Below are positions 9,964 through 23,757 of a stretch of DNA of 64,000 nt, in pieces. The position numbers and the translations under genes were made by a program. Each line of letters opens with the position of its first letter. The stretch's first letter is position 1. A model generated the notes under the pieces. That model was not told the DNA's origin. It made no database searches and saw nothing but the letters and a program-made list of their open reading frames with translations. The DNA comes from Clostridia bacterium (GTDB taxonomy: Bacteria; Bacillota; Clostridia; Oscillospirales; Acutalibacteraceae): contig JAGAMK010000027.1 of the NCBI GenBank assembly GCA_017624735.1, positions 9,280-73,279 of the forward strand, read 5' to 3'.

Positions 9964-9964
9964 A

Positions 9965-11293: not shown

Positions 11294-12235
11294 ATGAACA
11301 AAATCACAATAATCGGTTCAGGTAACGTTGGTGCAACTATTGCATATACCGCAACAGTTATGGGTCTTGCATCAGAAATCGTAATGATTGATGTCAATGA
11401 AGAAAAGGCTCTTGGCGAAGCACTTGACATCAGACAAGGTATTCCGTTCTGTAACCCAGCAACAGTTCACGCAGGTTCATATCAGGATGCTGTTGATTCA
11501 GATATCGTTATCATTACATCAGGCCTTGCAAGAAAACCAGGGCAGACAAGACTTGACTTGGCACAGGCTAACGTTAACATCATGAAGTCTATCGCTACTG
11601 AAATTGTTAAGTATGCTCCAAAGGCTACATACGTAATTGTTAGTAACCCTGTTGATATTCTTACATATGTTTTCTGTAAAACAACAGGTATTCCTGAAAA
11701 GAGAGTTATCGGTTCAGGTACAATCCTTGATACATCACGTTTACGTGCAAGAATTGCTGAATATTATTCAGTAAACCAGAAAAATGTTCATGCATATATT
11801 TTAGGTGAACACGGTGATACAGCTTTTGTTCCTTGGTCGATTGCTAATATTTCAAATGTTCCAATTGAAGATTACAGAAATGCTGTGGTGAAATCAGATT
11901 TATATCCTGAATTTAACAGAGACGAAGTAGAAGATTATGTTCGTAAATCAGGTGGACGAGTTATTCAGCGTAAAGGTGCAACATTCTATGCTGTTTCAGT
12001 TTCAGTTTGCCACCTTTGCAAATGCTTGTTGAATCCTATTGATACAACTCTTACAGTTTCAACAATGCTTCACGGTGAATATGGTATTGATGATGTTTGC
12101 TTGAGTCTTCTTAACATCGTTGGTAACAAGCAAGTTCAGGGCAAGATTCTTCTTCCTCTTAATGACCAGGAAATTTGGTCATTGAATAAGAGTGCAGAGA
12201 GCCTTAAAAATGTTATTAAACAAATTGAATTATAA
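11294..12235 (+). CDS. mdh: LDH/MDH-family 2-hydroxyacid dehydrogenase, predicted malate dehydrogenase (LDH-like MDH)
   Basis: GSGNVG Rossmann fold and GEHGD catalytic His. The specificity loop reads GLARKPGQTRLDL, with Arg where LDHs have Gln (Q102). Confidence 0.65.
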   Translation: MNKITIIGSGNVGATIAYTATVMGLASEIVMIDVNEEKALGEALDIRQGIPFCNPATVHAGSYQDAVDSDIVIITSGLARKPGQTRLDLAQANVNIMKSIATEIVKYAPKATYVIVSNPVDILTYVFCKTTGIPEKRVIGSGTILDTSRLRARIAEYYSVNQKNVHAYILGEHGDTAFVPWSIANISNVPIEDYRNAVVKSDLYPEFNRDEVEDYVRKSGGRVIQRKGATFYAVSVSVCHLCKCLLNPIDTTLTVSTMLHGEYGIDDVCLSLLNIVGNKQVQGKILLPLNDQEIWSLNKSAESLKNVIKQIEL

Positions 12236-12259
12236 GAACTTTAGAAAGGATAAATAGAA

Positions 12260-13636
12260 ATGGAATTTCGTATTGAACACGACTCTATGGGCGAGATGAA
12301 AGTCCCTGCAGACCGTCTTTGGGCTGCACAGACTCAGAGAAGCCACGAAAACTTTGAAATCGGTGTTGGTATTGAAACAATGCCTGCTGAAATTATAAAT
12401 GCATTCGGTATCCTTAAAAAGGCTGCTGCAATTGCGAACAATGCTCTTCGTCCTGAAAAGATGACAGAAGAAAAAATGAATGCAATCTGTGCTGCTTGTG
12501 ATGAAGTAAGAGAAGGTAAGCTTAACGGCCACTTCCCACTTGTTGTATGGCAGACAGGTTCAGGTACACAGTCAAATATGAACTCAAATGAGGTTATCGC
12601 TAACAGAGGTAACCAGATTCTTGGCAAAACATTACTTCATCCAAACGATGACGTAAATATGAGCCAGTCTTCAAATGACACATTCCCAACAGCTATGCAT
12701 ATCGCAGCTGTTCTTGCATTAGAAGAAAAGCTTCTACCTGCAGTTAAGGACTTGATTGAAACATTTAAGAGACTTGAAGCAGAAAACGAAGGAATTGTCA
12801 AGAGTGGTAGAACTCACTTACAGGATGCAACTCCTATAAAGTTCAGTCAGGAAATCAGCGGTTGGCGTTCAAGCCTTGAAAAGGATGTTGAATTAATCAA
12901 TCGTTCAATCGAACCTCTTTATGAACTTGCTCTTGGCGGTACTGCAGTTGGTACAGGTCTTAATGCACCTGCAGGTTTCGACACAGGTGTTGCTCAAGAA
13001 GTTGCAAAGCTTACAGGAAAGCCATTTGTAACTGCTGCAAACAAATTCCATTCACTTACATCAAAAGATGAACTTGTATTTGCACACGGTGCAATCAAAG
13101 CACTTGCTTGTGATATGATGAAAATCGCAAATGACGTTCGTTGGTTAGCCTCTGGTCCTCGTGATGGTCTTGGAGAAATCTTCATTCCTGAAAATGAGCC
13201 TGGTTCATCAATTATGCCAGGTAAGGTTAACCCAACACAGTGTGAAGCAGTAACAATGGTTGCTGTTCAGGTAATGGGTAACGATGTTGCAGTTAGTATG
13301 GCAGCATCTCAGGGAAACTTTGAATTGAATGTATTTATGCCTGTATGTATCTACAATTTCTTGCAGTCAGCAAGACTTCTTGCAGAAGCAATCGTATCAT
13401 TCAATAAAAACTGTGCTGTTGGCATTAAAGCAAACAAAGAGAAGATGCACCACAATCTTCACAACTCTTTAATGCTTGTTACCGCGCTTAACCCATACAT
13501 TGGTTATGAAAACGCAGCAAAAACAGCAAAGAAAGCATTTAAAGATAATATTTCACTTAAAGAAGCTTGTGTTGAACTCGGTTTCTTGACAGCTGAAAGA
13601 TTTGACGAAGTATTCCATCCTGAAGAAATGGTATAA
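12260..13636 (+). CDS. fumC: Class II fumarate hydratase
   Basis: GSSIMPGKVNPTQCEA signature. 458 aa with full-length similarity to the FumC pattern. Confidence 0.95.
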   Translation: MEFRIEHDSMGEMKVPADRLWAAQTQRSHENFEIGVGIETMPAEIINAFGILKKAAAIANNALRPEKMTEEKMNAICAACDEVREGKLNGHFPLVVWQTGSGTQSNMNSNEVIANRGNQILGKTLLHPNDDVNMSQSSNDTFPTAMHIAAVLALEEKLLPAVKDLIETFKRLEAENEGIVKSGRTHLQDATPIKFSQEISGWRSSLEKDVELINRSIEPLYELALGGTAVGTGLNAPAGFDTGVAQEVAKLTGKPFVTAANKFHSLTSKDELVFAHGAIKALACDMMKIANDVRWLASGPRDGLGEIFIPENEPGSSIMPGKVNPTQCEAVTMVAVQVMGNDVAVSMAASQGNFELNVFMPVCIYNFLQSARLLAEAIVSFNKNCAVGIKANKEKMHHNLHNSLMLVTALNPYIGYENAAKTAKKAFKDNISLKEACVELGFLTAERFDEVFHPEEMV

Positions 13637-13651
13637 ACCGGAGGTAAACCT

Positions 13652-14440
13652 ATGAAAGTTAGTTATTTCCCCGGATGCACTCTTAAAAACAAGGCTAAAG
13701 AACTTGATGTTTATTCAGTTAAGTCTGCCGAAGTTCTGGGTATAACTTTAGAAGAAATTGAAAATTGGCAGTGCTGTGGCGGTGTGTTCACAACAGCAAG
13801 AGATGAAGTTGCAACAAAACTTTCATCAGTTCGTGCACTCAAATATGCTCTTGATAGAGAACAGCCACTTGTTACAGTTTGTTCAGCTTGTCATAATGTA
13901 ATTAAGCAGACAAATTATGCTATGCAGAATGATAAGGAATTTGCCGATAAGGTTAACAGATACATGGCAGAAGGTGAATATAACGGAGAAACAGAAGTTT
14001 ATAATTACCTTGAAATGCTCCGTGATATGGTAGGCTTTGATGCGGTTAAGGAAAAAGTGGTCAACCCACTTAAAGGTAAAAAAATCGCAGCATACTATGG
14101 TTGTCTTCTTTTAAGACCTAACAGTGTTATGAGAATGGATGACCCTGAAAACCCAACAATCATGGAAGATTTAATTAAAGCAATGGGTGCAGAGCCGGTA
14201 GTATATGCAAAGCGTAACGAATGCTGTGGTGGTTACATCTCAGTAGAAAGTCCGGAATCAGCTAAGAGAAATAGTAATGCGATTATTGCAAATGCAAAGG
14301 CTGCAGGTGCAGAAATGATTATTACTGCATGTCCACTTTGCAAATATAACCTTATTAAAAATGGTGCGGATATTCCCGTAATTTATTTCACAGAGCTTCT
14401 TGCTGAAGCCCTTGGCGTAAAGGAGGATACAAATGAATAA
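13652..14440 (+). CDS. hdrB: HdrB-like protein with two CCG domains
   Basis: Two complete CCG patterns: C...WQCCGG...CSACHN and C...ECCGG...CPLCKYN. Confidence 0.85.
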   Translation: MKVSYFPGCTLKNKAKELDVYSVKSAEVLGITLEEIENWQCCGGVFTTARDEVATKLSSVRALKYALDREQPLVTVCSACHNVIKQTNYAMQNDKEFADKVNRYMAEGEYNGETEVYNYLEMLRDMVGFDAVKEKVVNPLKGKKIAAYYGCLLLRPNSVMRMDDPENPTIMEDLIKAMGAEPVVYAKRNECCGGYISVESPESAKRNSNAIIANAKAAGAEMIITACPLCKYNLIKNGADIPVIYFTELLAEALGVKEDTNE

Positions 14441-14822
14441 TAAAGAGTATCTTCAGGAAGAGATTATCCGTAGAAGTGGTGTGAATCCAAGCAAGTGTAT
14501 GCGTTGTGGCAAATGCTCTGCAACTTGCCCTGCATACGATGAAATGGAATATCATCCACATCAATTTGTAAATATGGTTGAAAGCGGCGACATTGAGCCG
14601 TTACTCAATTCAGAATCACTTTACAAGTGTTTATCATGTTTTGCGTGTATCGACAGATGTCCAAGAAATGTAGAACCTGCTAAATTGGTTGAAGCAGTAC
14701 GTCTTACTGCAATCAGACAGCAGGGCGCAAACAGAATGACTGCTAACGACGTTCCTCAGATGATTGAAGAGGATGTTCCACCACAGTTGCTCGTAAGTGC
14801 GTTCAGAAAATATACTAAGTAA
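14433..14822 (+). CDS. hdrC: HdrC-like 2x[4Fe-4S] ferredoxin-domain protein
   Basis: CMRCGKCSATCP and CLSCFACIDRCP. 8-nt overlap with the hdrB-like gene. Confidence 0.8.
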   Translation: MNNKEYLQEEIIRRSGVNPSKCMRCGKCSATCPAYDEMEYHPHQFVNMVESGDIEPLLNSESLYKCLSCFACIDRCPRNVEPAKLVEAVRLTAIRQQGANRMTANDVPQMIEEDVPPQLLVSAFRKYTK

Positions 14823-14836
14823 GGAGGAGAAGACAA

Positions 14837-16831
14837 ATGCAAAGAGTTGGCGTTTTTGTATGTTGGTGTGGTAGTAATATTGCAGGTACAGTTGATGTTG
14901 AAGCAGTATCAGAAGCCTTGAAAAGCGAACCAGGAGTAGTCTTTTCCACTAACTATCAATATATGTGCTCACAGGCTGGTCAGGATATGATTAAAGAAGC
15001 TGTTAAAGAGCATAATCTTACAGGAATTGTTGTTTGTTCTTGTTCACCAAGAATGCACGAAGCAACATTCCGTAAAACTGCAGCTGCTGCAGGACTCAAC
15101 CCATATATGGTTGAAATCGCAAATATCCGTGAACAGTGTTCATGGGTACATAAGGATATGCTTACAGGTACTGAAAAAGCAATTATCCTCGGTAAAGCTG
15201 CTATTGCAAAAGTGAATCTCAACACTCCACTCACTCCGGGTGAGTCACCTGTAACAAAGAGGGCTTTGGTTATCGGTGGTGGTATTGCAGGTATCCAGAC
15301 TGCACTTGATATTGCAGATGCAGGTTTCCCTGTTGATATCGTTGAGAAAAAGCCTACAATTGGCGGTAAAATGGCACAGCTTGATAAAACATTCCCAACA
15401 CTTGACTGTGCTGCTTGTATTCTCACTCCTAAAATGGTTGATGTGGCGCAGAATGAAAAAATCCGCATCTTCTCATATAGTGAAGTTTCAGAAATTAAAG
15501 GCTTTGTTGGTAACTTTGATGTAACTATCAAAAAGAATGCTCGTTTCGTTAAGGAAGATGTTTGTACAGGTTGTGGTGCTTGTGTTGATAAGTGTCCAAT
15601 GAAGAAAATCCCTAATGAATTCAATTTAGGTATGGATAATCGTAAGGCTATCTACATTCCATTTGCTCAGGCAGTGCCAAAAGTTGCAACAATCGACCCT
15701 AACGCATGTAATATGCTTAAAAATGGTAAATGCGGTCTTTGTGCAAAGGTTTGTACAGCAGGTGCTATTGACTATACACAGAAGGATGAATACATCGAAG
15801 AAAAGTATGGCGCAATCGTAGTTGCAACAGGCTTTAATCCAATCAGTATGGATAAATTTGACGAGTTTGCTTATAACCAGTCAAAGGATGTTATCACATC
15901 TCTTGAATTTGAGCGTCTTACAAATGCTGCAGGTCCTACTGCAGGTAAACTTTTAAGACCATCTGACGGAAAGCATCCTCACACAATCGTATTTGTTCAG
16001 TGCGTAGGCTCACGTTGTGATGCTTGTGCTGAAAAGGGTAAAGAGTATTGCTCAAAAATTTGTTGTATGTACACAGCAAAACACGCAATGCTTACAAGAG
16101 ATAAATATCCTGATACTGAAGTTTACGTGTTCTACATTGACGTAAGAACTCCGGGTAAGAACTTTGACGAATTCTATCGTCGTGCAGTTGAAGAATATGG
16201 AGTTAAATATATCAAGGGTATGGTAGGCAAGGTAACACCAGAAGGTGATGTACTTAAAGTTCAGGCATCAGACCTTATCGCAAACAAACAGCTTCATATT
16301 GATGCTGACTTGGTTGTTCTTGCAGCAGCAATTGAGCCTGATAAGTCTGCTCGTCCACTTGCTACAATGCTTACAGCAAGTATGGATACTAACGACTTTT
16401 TTACAGAAGCTCATCCAAAACTTCGTCCTGTTGAAAGCCCAACAGCAGGTGTCTTCCTTTCAGGTGCTTGTCAAGGACCTAAGGATATTCCTGAAACAGT
16501 TTCTCAGGCAGGTGCAGCAGCGTCAAAGGTTATCGGACTTCTTGCAAAAGATAAGTTGACAGGTAACCCATGTGTTGCTCATTCAAATGAACTTATGTGT
16601 AACGGTTGTTCATCTTGTGAAAGAGTTTGTCCTTACGGTGCAATCACTTATAGTGATAAAGAATTCCGTATGCCGGACAGAACAACTAAGATTAGAAGAG
16701 TTGCATCAGTTAACCCAGCAGTTTGTCAGGGTTGCGGTGCTTGTACAGTAGCTTGTCCATCAGGTGCTATGGACCTTAACGGATTTGCTAACTCACAGAT
16801 TATGGCGGAGGTTGACGCAATATGCAAGTAA
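14837..16831 (+). CDS. hdrA: HdrA-like FAD/FeS flavoprotein (putative bifurcating subunit)
   Basis: VFVCWCGSNIAG N-terminus and GGGIAGIQTALDIADAG FAD fold. Four CxxCxxCxxxCP-type motifs. 664 aa. Confidence 0.85.
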   Translation: MQRVGVFVCWCGSNIAGTVDVEAVSEALKSEPGVVFSTNYQYMCSQAGQDMIKEAVKEHNLTGIVVCSCSPRMHEATFRKTAAAAGLNPYMVEIANIREQCSWVHKDMLTGTEKAIILGKAAIAKVNLNTPLTPGESPVTKRALVIGGGIAGIQTALDIADAGFPVDIVEKKPTIGGKMAQLDKTFPTLDCAACILTPKMVDVAQNEKIRIFSYSEVSEIKGFVGNFDVTIKKNARFVKEDVCTGCGACVDKCPMKKIPNEFNLGMDNRKAIYIPFAQAVPKVATIDPNACNMLKNGKCGLCAKVCTAGAIDYTQKDEYIEEKYGAIVVATGFNPISMDKFDEFAYNQSKDVITSLEFERLTNAAGPTAGKLLRPSDGKHPHTIVFVQCVGSRCDACAEKGKEYCSKICCMYTAKHAMLTRDKYPDTEVYVFYIDVRTPGKNFDEFYRRAVEEYGVKYIKGMVGKVTPEGDVLKVQASDLIANKQLHIDADLVVLAAAIEPDKSARPLATMLTASMDTNDFFTEAHPKLRPVESPTAGVFLSGACQGPKDIPETVSQAGAAASKVIGLLAKDKLTGNPCVAHSNELMCNGCSSCERVCPYGAITYSDKEFRMPDRTTKIRRVASVNPAVCQGCGACTVACPSGAMDLNGFANSQIMAEVDAICK

Positions 16832-17256
16832 ATGAATATAAACCATTAATCGTTGCATTTTGTTGCAACTGGTGTTCTTATGCGGGTGCTGACCTTGCAG
16901 GTAACAACCGCCTTAACTATCCGGCAGAGGTAAAGATTATTCGTGTTCCTTGCTCATGCCGTGTAAACCCGATGTTTATTCTCCGTGCATTCCAGCGCGG
17001 TGCTGATGGTGTAATCATCTGTGGTTGTCACCCGGGTGACTGTCACTATACATCAGGTAACTACTACACTCGTCGTAGAATGGCAGCACTTTTTTCAATG
17101 CTTGATTATCTCGGTATCGAAAAAGAGCGTACTCGTGTTGAATGGGTTTCAGCTGCTGAAGGTGCAAAGTTTGCAGCAACTATGAACGATTTCGTTGAAA
17201 AGGTAGTTGCTTTAGGTGAAAACAAGAGATTGGAGGATTTACGATGCAAAAAATAA
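16822..17256 (+). CDS. mvhD: MvhD/FlxD-like [2Fe-2S] protein
   Basis: FCCNWCSYAGADLAG...VPCSCR...CGCHPGDCHY. 10-nt overlap with the hdrA-like gene. Confidence 0.85.
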   Translation: MQVNEYKPLIVAFCCNWCSYAGADLAGNNRLNYPAEVKIIRVPCSCRVNPMFILRAFQRGADGVIICGCHPGDCHYTSGNYYTRRRMAALFSMLDYLGIEKERTRVEWVSAAEGAKFAATMNDFVEKVVALGENKRLEDLRCKK

Positions 17257-18242
17257 CTCGCGAACAGTTGATTGAAAAAGCAGTTGCTTTGCTCGCAGAC
17301 GGAACAGTATCTTGTGTTCTCGGTTGGAGCAAAGGTGAGTTTGATTATGATGTAACTCCTGCAATTTTCAACAATGAAGAAGAATTAAAAGCAAATTTCG
17401 TGTTCAACGATTTCTGCGGTGTGAATTTCTCAAAATATCTTGTTGCAAAAACACAGAAATGTGAAGGCAAAATCCTTGTTTTCCTTAAACCATGTGATAC
17501 ATATAGCTTTAACCAGTTATTGACTGAACACAGATTTGACCGTGAAAAGGTTTATGCAGTTGGTATCCCTTGTGAAGGTATGGCTGATGTTGCAAAGGTT
17601 AAGACAATCTGTGGTGATGGTATCGCATCAATCAATTTTGATGGTGAAAATTTAGCAGTTACAACTCTTTATGAGGATGCGCCTGTTATGATTTCAACAA
17701 ATGATGTACTTGCAGAAAGATGTGTAAACTGCAAGAGCAAGAAACACGTCGCTTATGATGAATTAATAGGCGACGAAGGTGAAGTTATCGAGTCAAATCG
17801 TTTTGACGAAGTTGAAAAACTTGAAGCAATGACTCCTGATGAAAGATTTGCTTTCTGGCAGAATGAACTTTCTCGTTGTATTCGTTGTAATGCTTGTAGA
17901 GATGCTTGTCCTGCGTGTACTTGTGAAAAATGTGTTTTTGACAACCCTAATTCAGGTGTTGAAAATAAATCACCTGCAAATAGCTTTGAAGAAAAAATGT
18001 TCCACATTATCAGAGCATTCCACGTTGCAGGTCGTTGTACTGACTGTGGCGAATGTTCAAGAGTTTGCCCACAGAACATTCCTTTACACCTTCTTAACCG
18101 TAAGTTCATCAAAGATATGAATGAGTTCTACGGTGAGTATCAGGCTGGTGCAGAGGTTGGCTCACGTGCTCCTTTGGTTGACTACACAACTGAAGATTTA
18201 GAACCAGGTGAAGTTTTTAATAGGGGGGATATGAATGCGTAA
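17244..18242 (+). CDS. FeS protein, FlxC-like (4Fe-4S dicluster; assignment C versus B by gene order only)
   Basis: CIRCNACRDACPACTCEKC and CTDCGECSRVCP motifs. Overlaps both neighbours. Confidence 0.6.
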   Translation: MQKITREQLIEKAVALLADGTVSCVLGWSKGEFDYDVTPAIFNNEEELKANFVFNDFCGVNFSKYLVAKTQKCEGKILVFLKPCDTYSFNQLLTEHRFDREKVYAVGIPCEGMADVAKVKTICGDGIASINFDGENLAVTTLYEDAPVMISTNDVLAERCVNCKSKKHVAYDELIGDEGEVIESNRFDEVEKLEAMTPDERFAFWQNELSRCIRCNACRDACPACTCEKCVFDNPNSGVENKSPANSFEEKMFHIIRAFHVAGRCTDCGECSRVCPQNIPLHLLNRKFIKDMNEFYGEYQAGAEVGSRAPLVDYTTEDLEPGEVFNRGDMNA

Positions 18243-19263
18243 ATGTTCTCTTGATAAAATGAACCTTGTTTTTGCTGAAATCGCAAAAAATGCAGCCTTG
18301 TATCTTCCTGTTGACCAGAATGACGGCAGTGCTGTTTATAAGAAATGGGAAGAGGGTACAGTTTGGAGCAATGCTCTTAATACTGTAAGAAGCCCTAAGG
18401 ACTTCTTCTTCCCACAGACTGAAGATTTGATGAAATTCACAACTTCAGGTAAAAATATTGAAATTATTGATACAAGAAGTGAATCAGAAGATTTTGTTAT
18501 CTTCGGCGTTCGTGCTTGCGACGTAAAGAGTTTTGACATTCTTGACCGAGTTTTCTTAACAGAGCCTGTCGATAGCTTCTATGGTTCAAGAAGAGAACAT
18601 GGTGTTATCATTTCTCTTGCTTGTACAAGACCTTCAGAAACTTGCTTCTGTAAGACATTCGGTATTGATGCATCTGAACCGGCAGGGGATATCTCAGCAT
18701 GGAAAACAGAAACAGAAATTTTCTTCAAGGCTAATACAGAAAAGGGTGAAGAACTCTTAAATAAACTTTCAGCTCTGACAGAAGATTGTGATGATTCTAC
18801 TGTTAATGAACAGAAAGCAAAAATCAATGCAATTATGAACAAACTTCCACTTAAAGACCTTACAACAGATGCTTTTGGTGGTGGAAAAACAAACGAATTC
18901 TTTAATTTACCTGTGTGGGATGAGCTTTCAGGGACTTGTCTTGGTTGTGGTACTTGTACATTCGTTTGTCCTACTTGTCAATGCTATGATATTAAAGATT
19001 TCAATACAGGTAATGGTGTTATCCGTTACAGATGTTGGGACTCTTGTATGTACTCTGATTTCACTAAGATGGCTCACGGTAACAATAGACTTACTCAAAA
19101 AGAACGTTTCCGTCAGAGATTTATGCACAAACTCGTGTATTTCCCTGAAAACAATGATGGCGAATTCAGTTGTGTAGGTTGTGGACGTTGCCTTGCAAAA
19201 TGCCCGATTTCAATGAATATCGTAAAGGTTATGAAAAAGTTAGGAGGAGCAACAAATGAATAA
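18235..19263 (+). CDS. FeS protein, FlxB-like (AsrA/sulfhydrogenase-beta-like)
   Basis: CLGCGTCTFVCPTCQCYD and CVGCGRCLAKCP motifs. Overlaps both neighbours. Confidence 0.6.
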   Translation: MRKCSLDKMNLVFAEIAKNAALYLPVDQNDGSAVYKKWEEGTVWSNALNTVRSPKDFFFPQTEDLMKFTTSGKNIEIIDTRSESEDFVIFGVRACDVKSFDILDRVFLTEPVDSFYGSRREHGVIISLACTRPSETCFCKTFGIDASEPAGDISAWKTETEIFFKANTEKGEELLNKLSALTEDCDDSTVNEQKAKINAIMNKLPLKDLTTDAFGGGKTNEFFNLPVWDELSGTCLGCGTCTFVCPTCQCYDIKDFNTGNGVIRYRCWDSCMYSDFTKMAHGNNRLTQKERFRQRFMHKLVYFPENNDGEFSCVGCGRCLAKCPISMNIVKVMKKLGGATNE

Positions 19264-20089
19264 TCGTGTAGAAACATTGATTCCAAAACTTGGTGTTATT
19301 ACTGATGTTCGCATTGACACTCCCGACATTAAGACTTTTAGAGTTGTAACACCTGATGGTAAAAAAGCATTCGACCACAGACCAGGTCAGTGTGCAATGC
19401 TTTCAATCCCCGGTGTTGGTGAGGCTATGTTCTCTATTACATCCTCTCCTACAAACGAAGAATTCATGGAATTCTCAATCAAAAAATGTGGCTGTGTAAC
19501 AGATTGGTTACATCAGGCAGAAGTTGGTCAGCAGATTACAATAAGAGGACCTTATGGTAATCCATTCCCTGTTGATGATGTGTTTGCAGGAAAAGACCTT
19601 CTCTTTATTGCTGGTGGTGTTGGTTTAGCACCTCTTCGTTCAGTAATTAACTATTGTCGTCATTATCGTGACCGTTATGGCAAGATTGATATTGTTTATG
19701 GGTCAAGAAGTAAAGACGATTTGCTTGACTATCAGGAAATTATCAACGAATGGTCAACTGATGCAGGTGTTAATGTTCACCTTACAATCGACAATCCTCA
19801 GGAAGGTTGGGATGGTCACGTTGGTTTCGTTCCTAACTATGTTAAGGAATTAGGCTTTGATACAAATAAGGTTGCAGTTTTGTGTGGACCTCCAATCATG
19901 ATTAAGTTCACATTGGAAGGACTTTGTGCAATTGGATTCGAAAAGACAAACATTTACACAACTCTTGAATTGAGAATGAAATGCGGAGTTGGTAAATGCG
20001 GAAGATGTAATGTTGGTGCTAAATATGTTTGCAAAGACGGTCCTGTTTTCCGTTGCGACGAATTAGACGAACTTCCGGCAGAATATTAA
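19256..20089 (+). CDS. flxA: FlxA-like FAD/NAD(P)H-binding oxidoreductase with C-terminal [2Fe-2S] (PyrK/AsrB fold)
   Basis: FNR-like RPGQCAML...FSITSSP and GGVGLAPL motifs. C-terminal CGVGKCGRCNVG...C. Confidence 0.75.
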   Translation: MNNRVETLIPKLGVITDVRIDTPDIKTFRVVTPDGKKAFDHRPGQCAMLSIPGVGEAMFSITSSPTNEEFMEFSIKKCGCVTDWLHQAEVGQQITIRGPYGNPFPVDDVFAGKDLLFIAGGVGLAPLRSVINYCRHYRDRYGKIDIVYGSRSKDDLLDYQEIINEWSTDAGVNVHLTIDNPQEGWDGHVGFVPNYVKELGFDTNKVAVLCGPPIMIKFTLEGLCAIGFEKTNIYTTLELRMKCGVGKCGRCNVGAKYVCKDGPVFRCDELDELPAEY

Positions 20090-20103
20090 TGGAGGAGAAT
20101 ATC

Positions 20104-20778
20104 ATGGAAAAAATGGTTAATATATTCCTTTTCGGCAAAAAATACGAAGTGCCGGAAAATTTAACAATTATGACCGCTATGGAATATGCCGGTTATCAGC
20201 TTGTTCGTGGTTGCGGTTGTAGAAACGGTTTCTGTGGCGCTTGTGCAACAATTTATCGTATTAAGGGCGACAAAGAACTTAAAGCATGTCTTGCTTGCCA
20301 GACAAAGGTTGAAGATAATATGTATATTGCTACATTGCCTTTCTTCCCACTTGTTAAGCAGGTTTATGACATTGAAAAAGTGCCTGTAAATGAAACAGTT
20401 ATGATGCAACTCTATCCTGAAATTTACTCATGTATCGGTTGTAATGCTTGTACAAAGAGTTGCACTCAAGACCTTAATGTAATGCAGTATATCGCTTATG
20501 CACAACGCGGCGATTTTGAAAAATGTGCTGAAGAATCATTTGACTGCGTTATGTGTGGTGTTTGTTCATCAAGATGTCCTGCTGGTATTTCTCATCCACA
20601 GGTTGCAATGCTCGCAAGAAGAATTAATGGTAAATATCTTGCTCCTGGTTGCGGTCACCTTGAAGACAGAGTTAAGGAAATCAAAAATGGTGATTTCAAC
20701 GAATTGATTGAAGCTCTTATGCAGAAACCAATTGAAGAGATGAAAGAACTTTATAACACACGTGAAATCGAGAAGTAA
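20104..20778 (+). CDS. SdhB/FrdB-like iron-sulfur subunit (2Fe-2S plus two 4Fe-4S-type motifs)
   Basis: CGCRNGFCGACAT...C, then CIGCNACTKSC and CVMCGVCSSRCP. ATG 20104 is preceded by ggaggag. The track start at 20029 overlaps flxA and is unsupported. Confidence 0.75.
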   Translation: MEKMVNIFLFGKKYEVPENLTIMTAMEYAGYQLVRGCGCRNGFCGACATIYRIKGDKELKACLACQTKVEDNMYIATLPFFPLVKQVYDIEKVPVNETVMMQLYPEIYSCIGCNACTKSCTQDLNVMQYIAYAQRGDFEKCAEESFDCVMCGVCSSRCPAGISHPQVAMLARRINGKYLAPGCGHLEDRVKEIKNGDFNELIEALMQKPIEEMKELYNTREIEK

Positions 20779-20793
20779 GGAGGAAAGTAGTAT

Positions 20794-22392
20794 ATGTATT
20801 CAGAAAGATTTCAGAAATCAATTGCTGCAGTTGAAGCAGCAAGAGAAAAGAATATTGCTTTAGAGCCACAGCGTATGACAGCTCAGCAAAAAGAAGACTT
20901 ACTTGCAACTTTCCATCCTGACTATAAAAAAGATGAATTTGCAGTATTAAAAATCGGTGCTAATAAAGGTGATAAAGTTCCAACAGAATTAGCAGAAATG
21001 CTTCAGGCTCACAGCCGTATTACTGCTGACAGTGTTGACCTTTCAAACCCTGATTATGAAACAGATGTTCTTATTATCGGTGGTGGCGGTGCAGGTGCAT
21101 CTGCAGCTATTGAAGCAAATGAAACTGGCGCAGATGTTATGATTGTAACAAAACTCAGAATAGGTGATGCTAACACAATGATGGCTGAAGGTGGTATTCA
21201 GGCTGCAGATAAGCCAAACGATTCACCGGCAATACACTTTGTTGATGCTTTCGGTGGCGGACACTTTGCTGCTAAGAAAGAACTTCTTTCAAAGCTTGTT
21301 TGCGATGCTCCTGAAGCAATTCAGTGGCTTAGCAATCTTGGTGTTGAATTCGACAAAGATGCTGACGGCACAATGGTTACAACTCATGGTGGTGGCACTT
21401 CACGTAAACGCATGCACGCTGCTAAGGATTATTCAGGTGCAGAAATCATGAGAACTCTTCGTGATGAAGTATTCAATCGTCAGATTCCTGTAGTTGATTT
21501 CACAGCTGCAATCGAACTCATTATGGACGAAAACGGCAACGCTGCCGGTGCAGTTCTTATGAATATGGAAACAAAAGAACTTCTTGTTGCTAAGGCAAAG
21601 ACAGTTATCATTGCAACAGGTGGTGCAGGTCGTATGCACTATCAGGGCTTCCCTACATCAAACCACTATGGTGCAACTGCTGACGGTCTTGTACTTGGTT
21701 ACAGAGTAGGTGCAAAGCTTCTTTATGCTGAAACACTTCAGTACCATCCAACAGGTGTTGCATATCCGGAACAGATTTTTGGTGCTCTTGTTACTGAAAA
21801 AGTACGTTCACTTGGTGCAAAACTTGTTAACGTTAACGGTGATGTATTTATGCATCCTCTCGAAACACGTGACGTTGCTGCTGCTTCAATTATCCGTGAA
21901 TGTTCAGAACGTGGCACTGGTGTTGACACCGGAGATGGTCAAGGCGTTTGGCTTGACACTCCGATGATTGAAAAAATTGGTGGCGAAGGCACAATTATGA
22001 AGAGAATTCCTGCTATGTGGAGAATGTTTGACAAGTATGGCATTGATATTCGCAAAGAGCCAATTCTCGTTTACCCAACATTACACTATCAGAACGGAGG
22101 TCTTGATATCACTCCTGACTGTATGACAACAAATGTTGAAAACTTGTTTGTTGCTGGTGAGGCTGTTGGCGGTATCCACGGCAGAAACAGACTTATGGGT
22201 AACTCATTGCTTGATATTATCGTGTTCGGTAGAAGCGCAGGTCAAAATGCTGCTGCTAAAGCAAAGAATGTTACCGTAGGCGAGCTTACACTTAAGCACA
22301 TTGAAAAATTTGAAAATGAAATCGCAGAAGCTGGAATTGATACAGATAAAGTATCACCAAAACTTTTGCCTGATTACACAAACAAAAGATAA
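20794..22392 (+). CDS. SdhA/FrdA-family FAD flavoprotein (soluble fumarate reductase-like)
   Basis: DVLIIGGGGAGASAA FAD fold, plus QYHPTG and LHYQNGG motifs. Asn occupies the position of the covalent-FAD His (DANTMMAEGG versus RSHTVSAQGG). Confidence 0.75.
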   Translation: MYSERFQKSIAAVEAAREKNIALEPQRMTAQQKEDLLATFHPDYKKDEFAVLKIGANKGDKVPTELAEMLQAHSRITADSVDLSNPDYETDVLIIGGGGAGASAAIEANETGADVMIVTKLRIGDANTMMAEGGIQAADKPNDSPAIHFVDAFGGGHFAAKKELLSKLVCDAPEAIQWLSNLGVEFDKDADGTMVTTHGGGTSRKRMHAAKDYSGAEIMRTLRDEVFNRQIPVVDFTAAIELIMDENGNAAGAVLMNMETKELLVAKAKTVIIATGGAGRMHYQGFPTSNHYGATADGLVLGYRVGAKLLYAETLQYHPTGVAYPEQIFGALVTEKVRSLGAKLVNVNGDVFMHPLETRDVAAASIIRECSERGTGVDTGDGQGVWLDTPMIEKIGGEGTIMKRIPAMWRMFDKYGIDIRKEPILVYPTLHYQNGGLDITPDCMTTNVENLFVAGEAVGGIHGRNRLMGNSLLDIIVFGRSAGQNAAAKAKNVTVGELTLKHIEKFENEIAEAGIDTDKVSPKLLPDYTNKR

Positions 22393-22412
22393 GAAAAGAG
22401 GCAAATAGAATA

Positions 22413-23678
22413 ATGACTTTATTTGGTGGAGTTATTTCGGTTACGGGAATTTCCTTTTTAATGTTATGCGTTTTTGCGATACTCTTTGTTGGATATGCTC
22501 TCGGTAGAGTAACGATTAAGGGCGTTTCGTTAGGTGATGCAGGTGTTTTCGTTGTAGCATTATTATTTGGTGCACTTCTTTTCACACCACTTGAAAATCA
22601 ACTTGTAATTAAAGGCGAAATTGAAGTAGGATTTGCAGAAAAGGCACTTGAGATTATTGAAAGCCTTGGGTTGATTCTCTTTGTAACATCAGTTGGATTT
22701 ATTGCAGGACCTAAATTCTTTGGCAATATGAAAAAGAATTTTAAATCCTATGTCCTTTTAGGTCTTGTTATTATTCTTTCAGGTGGAATTGCAGCAGTAA
22801 CATGTATTTTCATCGGCAAGGGAATCGGTTTTGGTGCATCAATTGAAACACAAGAAGAATTTACTGCTATGATTACAGGTCTTCTTTCAGGTGCTCTTAC
22901 ATCAACACCGGCTTTCTCAGCAGCTAAAGAAAGTGTTGCCGCTGAACACGTTAGCCTTGTTTCGGTAGGCTATGGTATTGCATATATATTTGGTGTTATC
23001 GGTGTTGTTCTTTTTGTGCAGATTATGCCAAAAATCGTAAAAGCAGATATGGCTGTAGAACGAGCAAAACTCAGCACAGGTGATGATGGTACATCAAAGA
23101 AAAAAACCTTCAAGGGTAAACTTTTAGAACTTGATGACCACGGTGTTGCTGCTTTTGCACTTGCAGCTGTTATTGGTACTATGGTTGGTAAAGTGGCGGT
23201 TCCTCTCACAAGTAATGGACTTGACGGCACATGTTTCTCGCTTACAACAACAGGTGGTTGTCTTCTTACTGCATTAGTATTTGGTCACTTCGGCAGAATT
23301 GGAAAGTTGAGCATTATGCCATCACAGTCAACTCTTAAACTTTTCAGAGAGTTAGGTCTTGTGTTGTTCTTGTTGGGTGCAGGTGTTCCAGGCGGTGCAG
23401 ACTTTGTAAAATATTTTGACCCAATGTATTTCGTATATGGTATGATTATGACAATCTTGCCATTGATTATTGGTTATTTCTTCGCAAAATATGTTCTTAA
23501 ACTAAGCTTGCTTAACAGCCTTGGTTCACTTACAGGTGGTATGACAAGTACACCTGCTCTTGGAACCTTGATTTCAACAGCTGGAACAGAAGATGTGGCT
23601 GCTGCTTATGCTGCAACATATCCGATTGCACTTATTGCAGTTGTATTAGTTTCACAGCTTATAGTAATCGTATTCTGA
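22413..23678 (+). CDS. AAE-family (AspT/YidE/YbjL/SucE-like) permease, compact form
   Basis: Two homologous hydrophobic halves. GVSLGDAGVF motif near the N-terminus and GSLTGGMTSTPALG near the C-terminus, with a short hydrophilic linker. Confidence 0.65.
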   Translation: MTLFGGVISVTGISFLMLCVFAILFVGYALGRVTIKGVSLGDAGVFVVALLFGALLFTPLENQLVIKGEIEVGFAEKALEIIESLGLILFVTSVGFIAGPKFFGNMKKNFKSYVLLGLVIILSGGIAAVTCIFIGKGIGFGASIETQEEFTAMITGLLSGALTSTPAFSAAKESVAAEHVSLVSVGYGIAYIFGVIGVVLFVQIMPKIVKADMAVERAKLSTGDDGTSKKKTFKGKLLELDDHGVAAFALAAVIGTMVGKVAVPLTSNGLDGTCFSLTTTGGCLLTALVFGHFGRIGKLSIMPSQSTLKLFRELGLVLFLLGAGVPGGADFVKYFDPMYFVYGMIMTILPLIIGYFFAKYVLKLSLLNSLGSLTGGMTSTPALGTLISTAGTEDVAAAYAATYPIALIAVVLVSQLIVIVF

Positions 23679-23691
23679 TAAAAGAAAAAAT

Positions 23692-23727: not shown

Positions 23728-23757
23728 ATAATGTAATTTAATTTGAATTTATACTAA

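What the first reader, a model, noticed from the sequence alone, without database searches (positions are those of the whole stretch)
11294..23678. Operon-level coupling of an HdrCBA-MvhD-FlxCBA module to a soluble FrdAB-like fumarate reductase, with MDH, fumarase and a succinate-exporter-type permease
Seen in sequence: 12 same-strand genes are separated by 14-24 nt, or overlap by 8-13 nt at 14433/14440, 16822/16831, 17244/17256, 18235/18242 and 19256/19263. The first clear terminator is at 23692-23727. The products give a complete oxaloacetate-to-succinate route (MDH-like, FumC, FrdA/B-like). A full Flx-Hdr set is inserted between fumarase and FrdB: HdrB with two CCG motifs, HdrC, HdrA, MvhD, two AsrA-like FeS proteins and an FNR/PyrK-like NAD(P)H flavoprotein. 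An AAE-family permease follows. No SdhC/D-type membrane anchor is present. Established: FlxABCD-HdrABC was described in Desulfovibrio as an NADH-linked, proposed ferredoxin-reducing bifurcating complex. Methanogen thiol:fumarate reductase TfrAB joins a fumarate-reductase flavoprotein to HdrB-type CCG domains. Corynebacterium SucE is an AAE-family succinate exporter. The fumarate/succinate couple (about +30 mV) is far more positive than NAD+/NADH (about -320 mV). Inference: the HdrBC arm may deliver the high-potential electrons to FrdAB instead of to a heterodisulfide. NADH oxidation would then drive both fumarate reduction and ferredoxin reduction. That would be a quinone-independent, energy-conserving soluble fumarate reductase. 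I am not aware of a biochemical description of this arrangement, but I cannot search to confirm novelty.
Basis: partly seen in the sequence, partly recalled or inferred. Interest (0 to 1): 0.85.

Follow-up and report, generated by a model that had tools for sequence, protein, structure and literature searches.

The report
Soluble fumarate reductase wired to Flx-Hdr
This is a real, strongly conserved operon of an uncultured gut or rumen Clostridium that links a membrane-free fumarate reductase to an NADH-oxidising Flx-Hdr module, probably so that succinate formation also yields reduced ferredoxin; that idea has already been published for a related bacterium and has not been tested biochemically.

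Summary
Twelve same-strand genes (11294-23678) have the stated 14-24 nt gaps and 8-13 nt overlaps and end at a strong terminator (23692-23721). They encode an LDH-like malate dehydrogenase, class II fumarase, HdrB, HdrC, HdrA, MvhD/FlxD, FlxC, FlxB, FlxA, FrdB, FrdA and an AAE permease. None of the 11 enzymes has a membrane segment.

FrdA keeps every fumarate-binding and catalytic residue. It lacks the covalent-FAD histidine and the usual C-terminal domain, carries a conserved 88-residue N-terminal extension, and lacks the aspartate-oxidase glutamate.

The hdrBCA-mvhD-flxCBA-frdBA core is complete and colinear in 54 of 55 related genomes with enough flank. These genomes span 35-59 % GC, yet FrdA stays at least 80 % identical.

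The most likely function is a quinone-independent, flavin-based electron-bifurcating NADH:fumarate/ferredoxin oxidoreductase. This is inferred, not shown.

It is not a new idea. The same "succinate operon" and mechanism were proposed for Pseudoclostridium thermosuccinogenes (2019 preprint; PMC7282089), and an analogous cluster was described in Ca. Endoriftia. I found no biochemical or structural proof. This window is a new member of a predicted but uncharacterised kind, which appears to be widespread in gut and rumen Clostridia.

The parts
10384..10401 (.). Rex-box-like palindrome TTGTTAAAAATTTATCAC in the divergent intergenic region
   Evidence: It has 2 mismatches to TTGTTAANNNNTTAACAA. It lies 170 nt upstream of rex and faces the divergent hydrogenase cluster. 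Similar boxes lie upstream of the operon in 9 of 48 related loci. The regulatory role is inferred.
10571..11203 (+). rex, redox-sensing (NADH/NAD+) repressor; probable start is ATG 10571, not TTG 10466
   Evidence: NF003994 Rex at 261 bits against a cut-off of 130; the match starts at residue 39 of the long ORF. An RBS (aaaggagg) precedes ATG 10571. A 90-nt gap with no terminator separates it from mdh.
11294..12235 (+). LDH-like malate dehydrogenase (oxaloacetate to malate)
   Evidence: Ldh_1_N/C. GLARKPGQTRLDL has Arg where the LDH of 4m1q has Gln (GAAQKPGETRLDL). NCBIfam gives LDH 349/339 and MDH subfamily 282.7/283. It lies upstream of fumC in 45 of 53 loci.
12260..13636 (+). class II fumarase FumC (malate to fumarate)
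   Evidence: TIGR00979 at 712.5 bits, cut-off 664.75. Present in 50 of 53 loci.
13652..14440 (+). HdrB-like subunit with two CCG domains; proposed exit of the high-potential electrons toward FrdB
   Evidence: PF02754 x2. Cys pattern C9-x31-CC-x34-CxxC and C151-x38-CC-x34-CxxC. Best models are SdhE of methylmenaquinol:fumarate reductase (168 bits) and HdrB (150 bits); it also matches TfrB 262-487. PDB HdrB 8rvv_B at 1e-36.
14433..14822 (+). HdrC-like protein with two [4Fe-4S] clusters
   Evidence: Matches TIGR03290 and NF041779, and TfrB 134-220. Two CxxCxxCxxxCP motifs.
14837..16831 (+). HdrA, FAD/FeS subunit; proposed bifurcation site
   Evidence: Full-length match to methanogen bifurcating HdrA 5odc_A: 682 bits, residues 3-661 against 5-648 of 654. 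NF040770 at 782 bits.
16822..17256 (+). FlxD / MvhD-type [2Fe-2S] connector
   Evidence: PF02662 FlpD at 187.6 bits. 86-97 % identical across related loci.
17244..18242 (+). FlxC-position FeS protein, FdhB/FrhB-like in its C-terminal part
   Evidence: Fer4_8/9. PDB FdhB beta subunits of Fdh-Hdr complexes 8rvu_E and 7bkb_E at about 77 bits. Only weakly related to the next gene.
18235..19263 (+). FlxB-position FeS protein, AsrA / sulfhydrogenase-beta-like
   Evidence: Fer4_22. ShyB 183 bits, HydB 167, AsrA 147. PDB 9nez_B at 1.4e-45.
19256..20089 (+). FlxA, NAD(P)H-binding FAD/[2Fe-2S] flavoprotein (electron entry)
   Evidence: FAD_binding_6, NAD_binding_1 and DHODB_Fe-S_bind. Matches the HydG, AsrB and PyrK families.
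20104..20778 (+). FrdB-like iron-sulfur subunit: SdhB-type [2Fe-2S] plus two four-Cys [4Fe-4S] motifs (no 3Fe-4S motif)
   Evidence: CRNGFCGAC...C, then CIGCNACTKSC and CVMCGVCSSRCP. Matches TfrB 19-94, E 4.8e-10, and dhsB, E 1.9e-7. Natural FrdB-FrdA fusion P0122. The frdB to frdA gap has a median of 14 nt in 77 loci.
20794..22392 (+). FrdA-like soluble fumarate reductase flavoprotein with an 88-aa N-terminal extension and no C-terminal helical domain
   Evidence: FAD_binding_2 at 229 bits. Best model TfrA at 347 bits, positions 6-427 of 546. H318, T334, E335, R359, H431 and R466 are conserved; Asn127 replaces the covalent-FAD His. AF2 model pLDDT 94.2; best fold match is E. coli FrdA 1kf6_A, TM 0.72.
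22413..23678 (+). AAE-family permease, candidate succinate exporter
   Evidence: Asp-Al_Ex x2 at 184 bits. TIGR01625 at 125 bits, cut-off 72. 9 hydrophobic segments. Directly downstream of frdA in 51 of 76 loci. The substrate is inferred.
23692..23731 (+). intrinsic terminator ending the operon
   Evidence: 12-bp stem with 6 GC pairs and a 6-nt loop, then TTTTTTATAA.

Best explanation
The operon encodes the reductive branch from oxaloacetate to exported succinate. MDH makes malate and FumC makes fumarate. A soluble multi-subunit enzyme, FlxABCD-HdrABC-FrdAB, then reduces fumarate. Proposed electron path (inferred): NADH reduces FlxA (FAD, 2Fe-2S). Electrons pass through the FlxB and FlxC FeS clusters and the MvhD/FlxD 2Fe-2S cluster to the FAD of HdrA, which bifurcates them. 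The low-potential electron leaves through the HdrA ferredoxin domains to ferredoxin. The high-potential electron runs HdrC to HdrB (CCG, noncubane clusters) to FrdB (2Fe-2S, two 4Fe-4S) to the non-covalent FAD of FrdA and then to fumarate. Net reaction: 2 NADH + fumarate + Fd(ox) gives 2 NAD+ + succinate + Fd(red, 2 e-). With E0' values of +33, -320 and about -420 to -500 mV, this is roughly -33 to -49 kJ/mol. The reduced ferredoxin can then drive Rnf or the neighbouring [FeFe] hydrogenase, so fumarate reduction conserves energy without quinones. The AAE permease exports succinate. Rex probably ties expression to the NADH/NAD+ ratio. Shown here: gene content, cofactor motifs, catalytic residues, absence of an anchor, synteny and purifying selection. 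Inferred: complex formation, bifurcation, ferredoxin as co-acceptor, NADH rather than NADPH, and the transport substrate.
For: All parts are present with intact cofactor motifs. HdrA is a full-length homologue of the structurally proven bifurcating HdrA. The fumarate catalytic set is conserved in FrdA, and its fold matches E. coli FrdA. The missing covalent-FAD His fits a one-way reductase (general knowledge of Frd/Sdh). No membrane segment or anchor gene exists. The core hdrBCA-mvhD-flxCBA-frdBA is colinear in 54 of 55 loci, and the median flxA to frdB gap is 16 nt. These loci span GC 35-59 % and frdA GC3 0.26-0.71, while FrdA stays at least 80 % and HdrA at least 74 % identical. At least 589 genomes of the one-genome-per-species collection gave confirmed FrdA matches. 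Rosetta-stone logic also applies. The single methanogen protein TfrB aligns to FrdB (19-94), HdrC (134-220) and HdrB (262-487). The best model for HdrB is the CCG subunit SdhE of a fumarate reductase. In the distant locus L081, hdrB directly precedes frdB. A FrdB-FrdA fusion exists. Independent physiology comes from PMC7282089: the homologous P. thermosuccinogenes operon is co-regulated, and that paper notes that the earlier report of H2 addition abolishing succinate formation fits a ferredoxin-reducing fumarate reductase.
Against: No enzyme assay, co-purification or structure exists for any member. The FrdBA pair of this subfamily also occurs without Hdr: with a NuoF-like NADH module (L082-84), alone (L085-87), or with only a CitMHS transporter (L047). 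Frd therefore does not intrinsically need Hdr. Bifurcation has not been demonstrated with purified enzyme even for Desulfovibrio Flx-Hdr (my knowledge of Ramos 2015). HdrB keeps all 10 Cys of the heterodisulfide site, so a thiol/disulfide intermediate is not excluded.
Confidence: 0.6

Rival explanations
1. Non-bifurcating soluble NADH:fumarate reductase. Flx, MvhD and Hdr act only as an electron wire from NADH to FrdAB (1 NADH per fumarate), with no ferredoxin reduction and no energy conservation.
For: A soluble five-subunit NADH-dependent fumarate reductase is known in Hydrogenobacter thermophilus (Miura 2008, cited in PMC13147460; details are from my memory because the paper is not held). 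A related FrdBA sits next to a NuoF-like NADH module without HdrA in L082-84.
Against: A direct NADH module needs one extra gene (L082-84), yet this lineage maintains seven under strong purifying selection. HdrA keeps the full bifurcating architecture, including both ferredoxin domains. About 68 kJ/mol would be wasted in organisms that live on fermentation.
Confidence: 0.15
2. Two separate enzymes are co-expressed. Flx-Hdr bifurcates NADH electrons to ferredoxin and an unidentified disulfide or thiol carrier. FrdAB is an independent reductase fed by reduced ferredoxin or by that carrier, giving a TfrAB-like thiol loop.
For: HdrB retains the complete double CCG site used for heterodisulfide chemistry. 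A DsrC-like carrier is one option discussed for Endoriftia (PMC11636981). Stand-alone FrdBA pairs exist, so FrdB can presumably accept electrons from a diffusible donor.
Against: FrdB has no CCG domain of its own, so it has no thiol-oxidising site. No candidate carrier gene lies in the operon: the genes are packed with gaps of 24 nt or less. If Frd consumed Fd(red), the net reaction would gain nothing from bifurcation.
Confidence: 0.15
3. The flavoprotein is not a fumarate reductase. It could be an L-aspartate oxidase or a reductase for another enoate such as urocanate, acrylate or itaconate.
For: It is below the curated cut-off of every NCBIfam Sdh, Frd, Tfr and NadB model. It lacks the C-terminal domain, like the flavocytochrome and urocanate-reductase-type enzymes.
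Against: The dicarboxylate-binding and catalytic residues H318, T334/E335, R359, H431 and R466 are all present. His198 replaces NadB Glu121. The best models are TfrA and then SdhA/FrdA. The best fold match is E. coli FrdA. It has a dedicated SdhB-type partner and lies in an operon with fumarase and MDH in 50 of 53 and 45 of 53 loci. No nadA or nadC is nearby.
Confidence: 0.04
4. The complex runs in reverse: succinate oxidation to fumarate is driven by confurcation with reduced ferredoxin to make NADH.
For: Hdr-type complexes are reversible in principle.
Against: The reverse reaction is endergonic by roughly 33-49 kJ/mol under standard conditions (inference from the E0' values in PMC5861303). 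Non-covalent FAD (Asn127) disfavours succinate oxidation (general knowledge). The operon carries MDH, fumarase and an exporter-type permease, and the P. thermosuccinogenes homologue belongs to a succinate producer.
Confidence: 0.02

Closest known systems
'Succinate operon' of Pseudoclostridium thermosuccinogenes (CDQ83_RS03365-03315; Koendjbiharie and van Kranenburg 2019 preprint; PMC7282089)
   Same: The gene series is the same: fumarase, seven Flx-Hdr genes, two fumarate reductase genes, then a putative succinate transporter. The proposed mechanism is the same: NADH to fumarate plus ferredoxin. The operon is co-regulated in RNA-seq.
   Different: The organism differs: an uncultured mesophilic gut or rumen Clostridium, found only in metagenome assemblies. 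Here an MDH gene is part of the operon and rex lies directly upstream.
Ca. Endoriftia persephone rTCA cluster (Hdr-Flx, tfrAB-like frdAB, korABCD; Rubin-Blum 2019, PMC11636981, PMC13147460)
   Same: AB-type fumarate reductase genes are co-located and partly co-expressed with Hdr-Flx, and a bifurcating fumarate/ferredoxin model has been proposed. Locus L081 found here (OFOR-hdrA-mvhD-hdrC-hdrB-frdB-frdA) is of this type.
   Different: It is an autotrophic rTCA context with 2-oxoglutarate:ferredoxin oxidoreductase as the proposed ferredoxin consumer. It is not a fermentative succinate pathway with MDH, fumarase and an exporter.
FlxABCD-HdrABC of Desulfovibrio vulgaris (Ramos et al. 2015)
   Same: The same seven subunit types are present. 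It is proposed to be NADH-oxidising and ferredoxin-reducing.
   Different: The acceptor there is thought to be the DsrC disulfide, and the complex is linked to ethanol metabolism. Gene order also differs: flxABCD-hdrABC there against hdrBCA-flxDCBA here. No Frd genes are attached (my knowledge of that paper).
Thiol:fumarate reductase TfrAB of methanogens
   Same: TfrA is the best-scoring model for FrdA (347 bits). TfrB aligns piecewise to FrdB, HdrC and HdrB. The enzyme is soluble and quinone-independent.
   Different: TfrB is one fused polypeptide and the donor is CoM-SH plus CoB-SH. Here the three parts are separate proteins, FrdA lacks the TfrA C-terminal domain (model positions 428-546 are unmatched), and scores are far below the cut-offs (347 against 718; 38.7 against 385).
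MvhAGD-HdrABC and Fdh-Hdr bifurcating complexes of methanogens (5odc, 7bkb, 8rvu)
   Same: HdrA, HdrB, HdrC and MvhD are homologous along their full lengths. The FdhB-like subunit occupies the donor side.
   Different: The donor there is H2 or formate, and the high-potential acceptor is CoM-S-S-CoB. Here the donor is NAD(P)H through FlxA, and the proposed acceptor is fumarate through FrdAB.
Type E succinate:quinone / methylmenaquinol:fumarate reductases with the CCG subunit SdhE
   Same: A two-CCG-domain protein partners an SdhAB/FrdAB pair. SdhE is the top NCBIfam model for the HdrB-like protein (168.5 bits).
   Different: Those enzymes are membrane-associated and quinone-linked. The score is well below the cut-off (500), and no quinone-related or membrane component is encoded here.
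Soluble five-subunit NADH-dependent fumarate reductase of Hydrogenobacter thermophilus (Miura 2008)
   Same: It is a soluble, NADH-dependent, multi-subunit fumarate reductase without a membrane anchor.
   Different: It is not reported to reduce ferredoxin and has a different accessory subunit set (from memory; the paper is not held).
Bcd-EtfAB and caffeyl-CoA reductase CarCDE (functional analogues)
   Same: NADH-driven bifurcation uses an enoate-type acceptor of about 0 mV to reduce ferredoxin (PMC5861303).
   Different: These are unrelated proteins with an Etf-based bifurcating flavin, not HdrA.

Membership tests
Flx-Hdr (FlxABCD-HdrABC) NADH dehydrogenase/heterodisulfide reductase | All seven subunit types are encoded together | tested here: met
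   hdrB, hdrC, hdrA, flxD(mvhD), flxC, flxB and flxA are contiguous at 13652-20089. Assigning the two FeS proteins to FlxB and FlxC by position is tentative.
Flx-Hdr (FlxABCD-HdrABC) NADH dehydrogenase/heterodisulfide reductase | HdrA has the full bifurcating architecture: N-terminal domain, FAD domain, and inserted plus C-terminal ferredoxin domains | tested here: met
   Residues 3-661 align to 5-648 of 654 in 5odc_A at 682 bits.
Flx-Hdr (FlxABCD-HdrABC) NADH dehydrogenase/heterodisulfide reductase | HdrB has two complete CCG motifs (10 Cys) | tested here: met
   C9, C41, C42, C77, C80 and C151, C190, C191, C226, C229. PF02754 matches in two stretches.
Flx-Hdr (FlxABCD-HdrABC) NADH dehydrogenase/heterodisulfide reductase | NADH oxidation coupled to ferredoxin reduction (bifurcation) | not testable with these tools
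   This needs anaerobic enzyme assays.
Complex-II-type fumarate reductase flavoprotein (FrdA/SdhA/TfrA) | Fumarate-binding and catalytic residues (E. coli FrdA H232, T244/E245, R287, H355, R390) | tested here: met
   H318, T334/E335, R359, H431 and R466 in the alignments to 3p4p and 1nek. They are invariant or nearly invariant in alignments A1 and A2.
Complex-II-type fumarate reductase flavoprotein (FrdA/SdhA/TfrA) | Histidine for covalent 8-alpha-FAD linkage (E. coli FrdA H44) | tested here: not met
   SHTVAAEGG aligns to ANTMMAEGG, giving Asn127. Asn127 is invariant in the close family.
Complex-II-type fumarate reductase flavoprotein (FrdA/SdhA/TfrA) | C-terminal helical domain and a score above the curated family cut-off | tested here: not met
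   The TfrA model matches only positions 6-427 of 546, at 347 bits against a cut-off of 718. sdhA_frdA scores 282 against 567. No Succ_DH_flav_C Pfam hit. An 88-aa N-terminal extension is present instead.
Complex-II-type fumarate reductase flavoprotein (FrdA/SdhA/TfrA) | Overall fold of the FAD-binding and capping domains | tested here: met
   AF2 model pLDDT 94.2. Foldseek top hit is 1kf6_A, TM 0.72 over 450 columns.
SdhB/FrdB iron-sulfur subunit | N-terminal C-x4-C-x2-C-x(n)-C [2Fe-2S] motif | tested here: met
   C39RNGFC44GAC47...C62. Matches TfrB 19-94 and dhsB 42-99.
SdhB/FrdB iron-sulfur subunit | Second ferredoxin motif with a missing Cys (the [3Fe-4S] cluster next to the quinone site) | tested here: not met
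   Both motifs have four Cys: CIGCNACTKSC and CVMCGVCSSRCP. Scores are below the cut-offs (30.8 against 88).
Thiol:fumarate reductase TfrAB | TfrB has FeS and CCG domains fused in one polypeptide | tested here: not met
   FrdB (224 aa) has no CCG domain. The CCG domains are on the separate HdrB-like protein.
L-aspartate oxidase NadB | Glu121 (E. coli), and a score above the NadB cut-off | tested here: not met
   His198 aligns to Glu121 (the NadB sequence was recalled from memory, and its length of 540 matches 1chu). TIGR00551 scores 267 against 452.75.
Class II fumarase | Equivalog HMM above the cut-off, and a FumaraseC_C domain | tested here: met
   TIGR00979 at 712.5 against 664.75. PF10415.
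LDH-like malate dehydrogenase | Arg at the substrate-discriminating position (LDH Gln102) | tested here: met
   GLARKPG against GAAQKPG of LDH 4m1q. The MDH subfamily HMM scores 282.7 against 283 and the LDH HMMs are above their cut-offs, so the assignment rests on this residue and on context.
AAE (aspartate:alanine exchanger) transporter family, including SucE | Two Asp-Al_Ex membrane repeats | tested here: met
   PF06826 matches in 2 stretches at 184 bits. TIGR01625 at 125 against 72.
AAE (aspartate:alanine exchanger) transporter family, including SucE | Succinate export activity | not testable with these tools
   The protein is 421 aa, and the full-length AspT/YidE models (553-562 positions) match only its two membrane repeats. 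The substrate is inferred from context only.

The most novel reading that the evidence does not exclude
This would be the first fumarate-dependent flavin-based electron-bifurcating enzyme: an HdrA-centred complex whose HdrB noncubane clusters serve as a pure electron relay into a complex-II-type FrdAB rather than doing thiol chemistry. It would be the main, quinone-free, energy-conserving route to succinate in hundreds of gut and rumen Clostridia species. That would change how succinate, H2 and ferredoxin budgets of these ecosystems are modelled.
Probability: 0.55. Interest if true: 0.75.

Novelty: new member of a known kind. Interest (0 to 1): 0.5.

Why it matters
If the mechanism is right, fumarate reduction in quinone-free Clostridia is not a plain redox sink. 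It would be an energy-conserving step that turns NADH into reduced ferredoxin, usable by Rnf or for H2 production. The operon is very widespread. At least 589 genomes of the one-genome-per-species collection gave confirmed FrdA matches, and the 80 best are all gut, rumen or faecal Clostridia. It is also under strong purifying selection. It is therefore likely to shape succinate, propionate-precursor and hydrogen fluxes in ruminant and human guts. It also offers a tractable bacterial HdrABC whose high-potential substrate is a cheap, stable metabolite, which would make the HdrB exit path easier to study than with CoM-S-S-CoB. The idea has been in print since 2019-2020, so the value here is in showing breadth, conservation and subunit logic. 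It is not a discovery of the concept.

Tried and rejected
- **First AlphaFold run.** The FrdA alignment held only 87-94 % identical sequences and gave pLDDT 52, so I discarded it. A diverse alignment fixed this.
- **Papers not held.** The 2019 preprint (10.20944/preprints201912.0288.v1) and Miura 2008 (PMC2580677) are not held. Their content is cited second-hand or from memory.
- **Literature searches.** Searches for 'bifurcating fumarate reductase', 'Flx-Hdr' plus fumarate reductase, MvhD plus fumarate reductase, and Ruminococcus plus heterodisulfide plus fumarate reductase found no biochemical characterisation. They also found nothing on the gut and rumen Clostridia operon.
- **Rex box.** There is none in the 90-nt rex-mdh gap. 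The only good box is upstream of rex.
- **Rfam.** No RNA family, riboswitch or leader was found anywhere in the window.
- **Yeguia hominis.** The protologue gives no fermentation products, so it cannot confirm succinate production by a cultured carrier.
- **Rejected: FrdA as L-aspartate oxidase**.
- **Rejected: a membrane-anchored enzyme**.
- **Rejected: frdB starting at TTG 20029.** That start would overlap flxA by 61 nt, and an independent gene call uses ATG 20104.
- **Source organism.** The genome-contig scan gave no identical genome (best 92 %). The window's FrdA is found only in metagenome assemblies.

Full report
**Observation.** These are 11294-12235, 12260-13636, 13652-14440, 14433-14822, 14837-16831, 16822-17256, 17244-18242, 18235-19263, 19256-20089, 20104-20778, 20794-22392 and 22413-23678. 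Gaps are 14-24 nt and overlaps are 8-13 nt at the stated junctions. The only strong + strand intrinsic terminator in 9900-24900 is a 12-bp stem at 23692-23721 followed by a T-run. The frdB start at ATG 20104 (224 aa) is also what an independent gene caller chose on an identical metagenome contig. None of the eleven enzymes has a hydrophobic segment, while the last protein has nine. The statement that there is no SdhC/D anchor therefore holds.

**What the genes are.**
- **Gene 1** has LDH/MDH domains. NCBIfam places it just above the L-LDH cut-offs and 0.3 bits below the MDH subfamily cut-off. Its loop reads GLARKPGQTRLDL where a genuine LDH (4m1q) has GAAQKPGETRLDL. That is Arg at the Gln102 position, the classical MDH determinant (my knowledge: Wilks 1988).
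- **Gene 2** is a class II fumarase (TIGR00979 at 712 bits, cut-off 665).
- **Gene 3** is an HdrB-type protein with two complete five-Cys CCG motifs. Its best models are the CCG subunit SdhE of methylmenaquinol:fumarate reductase (168 bits) and HdrB (150 bits).
- **Gene 4** is HdrC-like, with two 4Fe-4S motifs.
- **Gene 5** is HdrA. It aligns end to end (3-661 against 5-648 of 654, 682 bits) with the HdrA of the crystallised bifurcating MvhAGD-HdrABC (5odc_A).
- **Gene 6** is MvhD/FlxD.
- **Gene 7** is an FeS protein whose C-terminal part resembles the FdhB subunits that feed MvhD-HdrA in Fdh-Hdr complexes (about 77 bits).
- **Gene 8** is AsrA/sulfhydrogenase-beta-like (9nez_B at 1e-45).
- **Gene 9** is the AsrB/HydG/PyrK-type FAD/NAD(P)H/2Fe-2S flavoprotein, FlxA.

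**The fumarate reductase pair is atypical.**
- **FrdB** (224 aa) has the SdhB-type CRxGxCGxC...C 2Fe-2S motif. Both ferredoxin motifs carry four Cys, so I predict two 4Fe-4S clusters and no 3Fe-4S cluster.
- **FrdA scores.** FrdA (532 aa) scores best against TfrA (347 bits), then SdhA/FrdA (282), then NadB (267). It is below every curated cut-off.
- **FrdA residues.** Alignments to E. coli FrdA and SdhA and to 31 relatives show the full dicarboxylate and catalytic set: H318, T334/E335, R359, H431 and R466. Asn127 replaces the covalent-FAD histidine. His198 sits where E. coli NadB has Glu121 (the NadB sequence was recalled from memory).
- **FrdA domains.** It lacks the C-terminal helical domain of SdhA, FrdA and TfrA, and has a conserved 88-residue N-terminal extension with the motif HPDY...G.N.G..P.EL.
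- **FrdA structure.** With a diverse alignment, AlphaFold gave pLDDT 94.2. The best PDB fold match is E. coli FrdA (1kf6_A, TM 0.72, 450 columns).

**Comparative evidence.**
- **Breadth.** The 80 best loci are all gut, rumen or faecal Clostridia. They include Ructibacterium, Congzhengia, Acutalibacteraceae, Ca. Parachristensenella and the cultured Yeguia hominis NSJ-40. Their FrdA is 80-92 % identical to the window's.
- **Synteny.** I mapped all window proteins onto these loci. The core hdrBCA-mvhD-flxCBA-frdBA is complete and colinear in 54 of 55 loci with enough flank. fumC lies upstream in 50 of 53, mdh in 45 of 53, and the AAE gene directly downstream in 51 of 76. The median flxA-frdB gap is 16 nt and the median frdB-frdA gap is 14 nt.
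- **Selection.** The loci range from 35 to 59 % GC, and frdA GC3 runs from 0.26 to 0.71. The proteins nevertheless stay at 80 % identity or more for FrdA, 74 % or more for HdrA and 76 % or more for MvhD. This points to strong purifying selection on an ameliorated, native gene set.
- **More distant relatives.** At greater distance the N-extended FrdA has other partners. In L081 the order is OFOR-hdrA-mvhD-hdrC-hdrB-frdB-frdA. In proteobacterial L082-84 it is frdB-frdA followed by a NuoF-like gene. In L085 and L086 FrdAB stands alone. L087 (P0122) carries a fused FrdB-FrdA. L047 has frdBA with a CitMHS transporter and no flx-hdr within 10 kb.
- **Conclusion.** FrdBA is a portable soluble module that different lineages plug into different electron-input modules.

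**Mechanism.** In it, NADH enters at FlxA and HdrA-FAD bifurcates. Ferredoxin takes the low-potential electron. The high-potential electron flows HdrC, HdrB, FrdB, FrdA-FAD and then fumarate.

Beyond synteny, three Rosetta-stone-type observations support a direct HdrB-FrdB contact:
- The single methanogen protein TfrB aligns piecewise to FrdB (19-94), HdrC (134-220) and HdrB (262-487).
- CCG proteins (SdhE) are established partners of SdhAB in type E enzymes, and SdhE is the best model for this HdrB.
- hdrB immediately precedes frdB in L081.

The energetics allow it (inference from E0' values quoted in PMC5861303). The exergonic branch gives about -68 kJ/mol and the ferredoxin branch costs about +19 to +35 kJ/mol.

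The window also places rex directly upstream, with a Rex-box-like palindrome at 10384-10401. Across the divergent intergenic region lie a ferredoxin-type [FeFe] hydrogenase, a PP2C phosphatase and a HydS-like sensory hydrogenase. This neighbourhood is coherent with NADH/ferredoxin/H2 balancing. All of these steps are inferred, and nothing here measures activity or association.

**Rivals.**
- **A non-bifurcating NADH:fumarate reductase.** There are precedents: the H. thermophilus enzyme, and the NuoF-linked variant found here. It is hard to reconcile with seven conserved accessory genes that include a full bifurcating HdrA.
- **Two separate enzymes linked by a thiol carrier or by ferredoxin.** HdrB keeps the heterodisulfide-site cysteines, and stand-alone FrdBA pairs exist. 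However, FrdB has no thiol site and no carrier gene fits in the operon.
- **A different substrate.** The catalytic residues, the His in place of NadB Glu121, the fold and the fumarase/MDH context all argue against this.
- **Reverse operation.** This is thermodynamically unfavourable, and the FAD is non-covalent.

**Comparison with what is known.** The concept is not new.
- PMC7282089 describes the 'succinate operon' of Pseudoclostridium thermosuccinogenes. It comprises fumarate hydratase, a seven-gene Flx-Hdr complex, a two-gene fumarate reductase and a putative succinate transporter, which is the same series as here.
[quoted passage not shown] It reports about four-fold co-induction under CO2 limitation. 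It also notes that the reported inhibition of succinate formation by H2 fits a ferredoxin-reducing enzyme.
- Independently, an AB-type fumarate reductase next to Hdr-Flx and OGOR in Ca. Endoriftia has been proposed to bifurcate. This appears in Rubin-Blum 2019 as summarised in PMC13147460, with co-expression data in PMC11636981.
- A 2024 preprint lists a STRING link between HdrA and an Sdh/Frd flavoprotein in Ruminococcus champanellensis.
- I found no enzymology and no solved structure of any Flx-Hdr or Hdr-Frd complex. A 2026 review still says the mechanism 'has been suggested'.

**Verdict.** The mechanism is untested and the idea has been published before. This window is a new, uncultured gut or rumen member of a predicted but uncharacterised kind.

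What this analysis adds:
- the breadth of the operon, with hundreds of species carrying the FrdA;
- the strength of conservation;
- the split-TfrB and SdhE logic for an HdrB-FrdB contact;
- the atypical FrdAB features: non-covalent FAD, an N-terminal extension in place of the C-terminal domain, and two 4Fe-4S clusters;
- the modular partners of this FrdAB subfamily.

Interest is moderate (0.5). The biology would be important if proven, but the finding does not open a question that is not already on record.

Noticed in passing
window 5425-10207 (- strand): A cluster divergent from rex and the succinate operon holds a 473-aa [FeFe] hydrogenase, a SpoIIE/PP2C phosphatase, a HydS-like sensory [FeFe] hydrogenase with a C-terminal FeS and PAS domain, and two small thioredoxin-like 2Fe-2S proteins. 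This resembles the hydA2-hydS-phosphatase-rex arrangement described for Ruminococcus albus (from memory). It suggests joint H2/NADH-responsive control of ferredoxin-consuming and ferredoxin-producing enzymes.
   Followed up: partly
window 10384-10401; related loci L002, L007, L019, L029, L038, L040, L050, L052, L059: A Rex-box-like palindrome lies in the shared intergenic region upstream of rex. Boxes with 2 or fewer mismatches occur within 350 nt upstream of the operon in 9 of 48 related loci. A rex gene sits next to the operon, upstream or downstream, in many genomes.
   Followed up: partly
L082-L084 10001-12891: In proteobacterial contigs a 48 %-identical N-extended FrdA and its FrdB are followed by a NuoF-like gene (Complex1_51K, NADH_4Fe-4S) that overlaps frdA by 4 nt. 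This looks like a three-subunit soluble NADH:fumarate reductase without Hdr.
   Followed up: no
L081 811-9771: The gene order is four-subunit 2-oxoacid:ferredoxin oxidoreductase, hdrA, mvhD, hdrC, hdrB, frdB, frdA, with no flx genes on the 10-kb contig. This is an Endoriftia-like rTCA-type arrangement with a 55 %-identical FrdA.
   Followed up: no
L087 5250-7433 (P0122): A natural FrdB-FrdA fusion protein of 727 aa stands alone, without hdr or flx neighbours.
   Followed up: partly
L047 8079-11605: One Congzhengia genome has frdBA (84-85 % identical) preceded by a CitMHS-family transporter. It has no flx-hdr, fumC or mdh within 10 kb. This is the single exception among 55 loci.
   Followed up: partly
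L001-L080 versus window 11294-23678: The loci span 35-59 % GC, and frdA GC3 runs from 0.26 to 0.71. MvhD stays 76-97 % identical, HdrA 74-96 % and FrdA 80-92 %. This is unusually strong protein conservation across compositionally very different genomes.
   Followed up: partly
window 20794-21057 (FrdA residues 1-88): A conserved N-terminal extension (two helices, a small beta hairpin and a helix; motif HPDY...G.N.G..P.EL) defines this FrdA subfamily down to 39 % identity, while the usual C-terminal domain is absent. Its role is unknown; it may form an interface with FrdB or Hdr.
   Followed up: partly
window 25198-29716: Downstream of the convergent DAHP synthase gene lie a metallophosphoesterase, an MFS transporter and a GH127-like beta-L-arabinofuranosidase. 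These fit a plant-polysaccharide-degrading gut organism.
   Followed up: no
window 29769-31613 (- strand): A 614-aa ORF has no Pfam family at E <= 1e-5.
   Followed up: no
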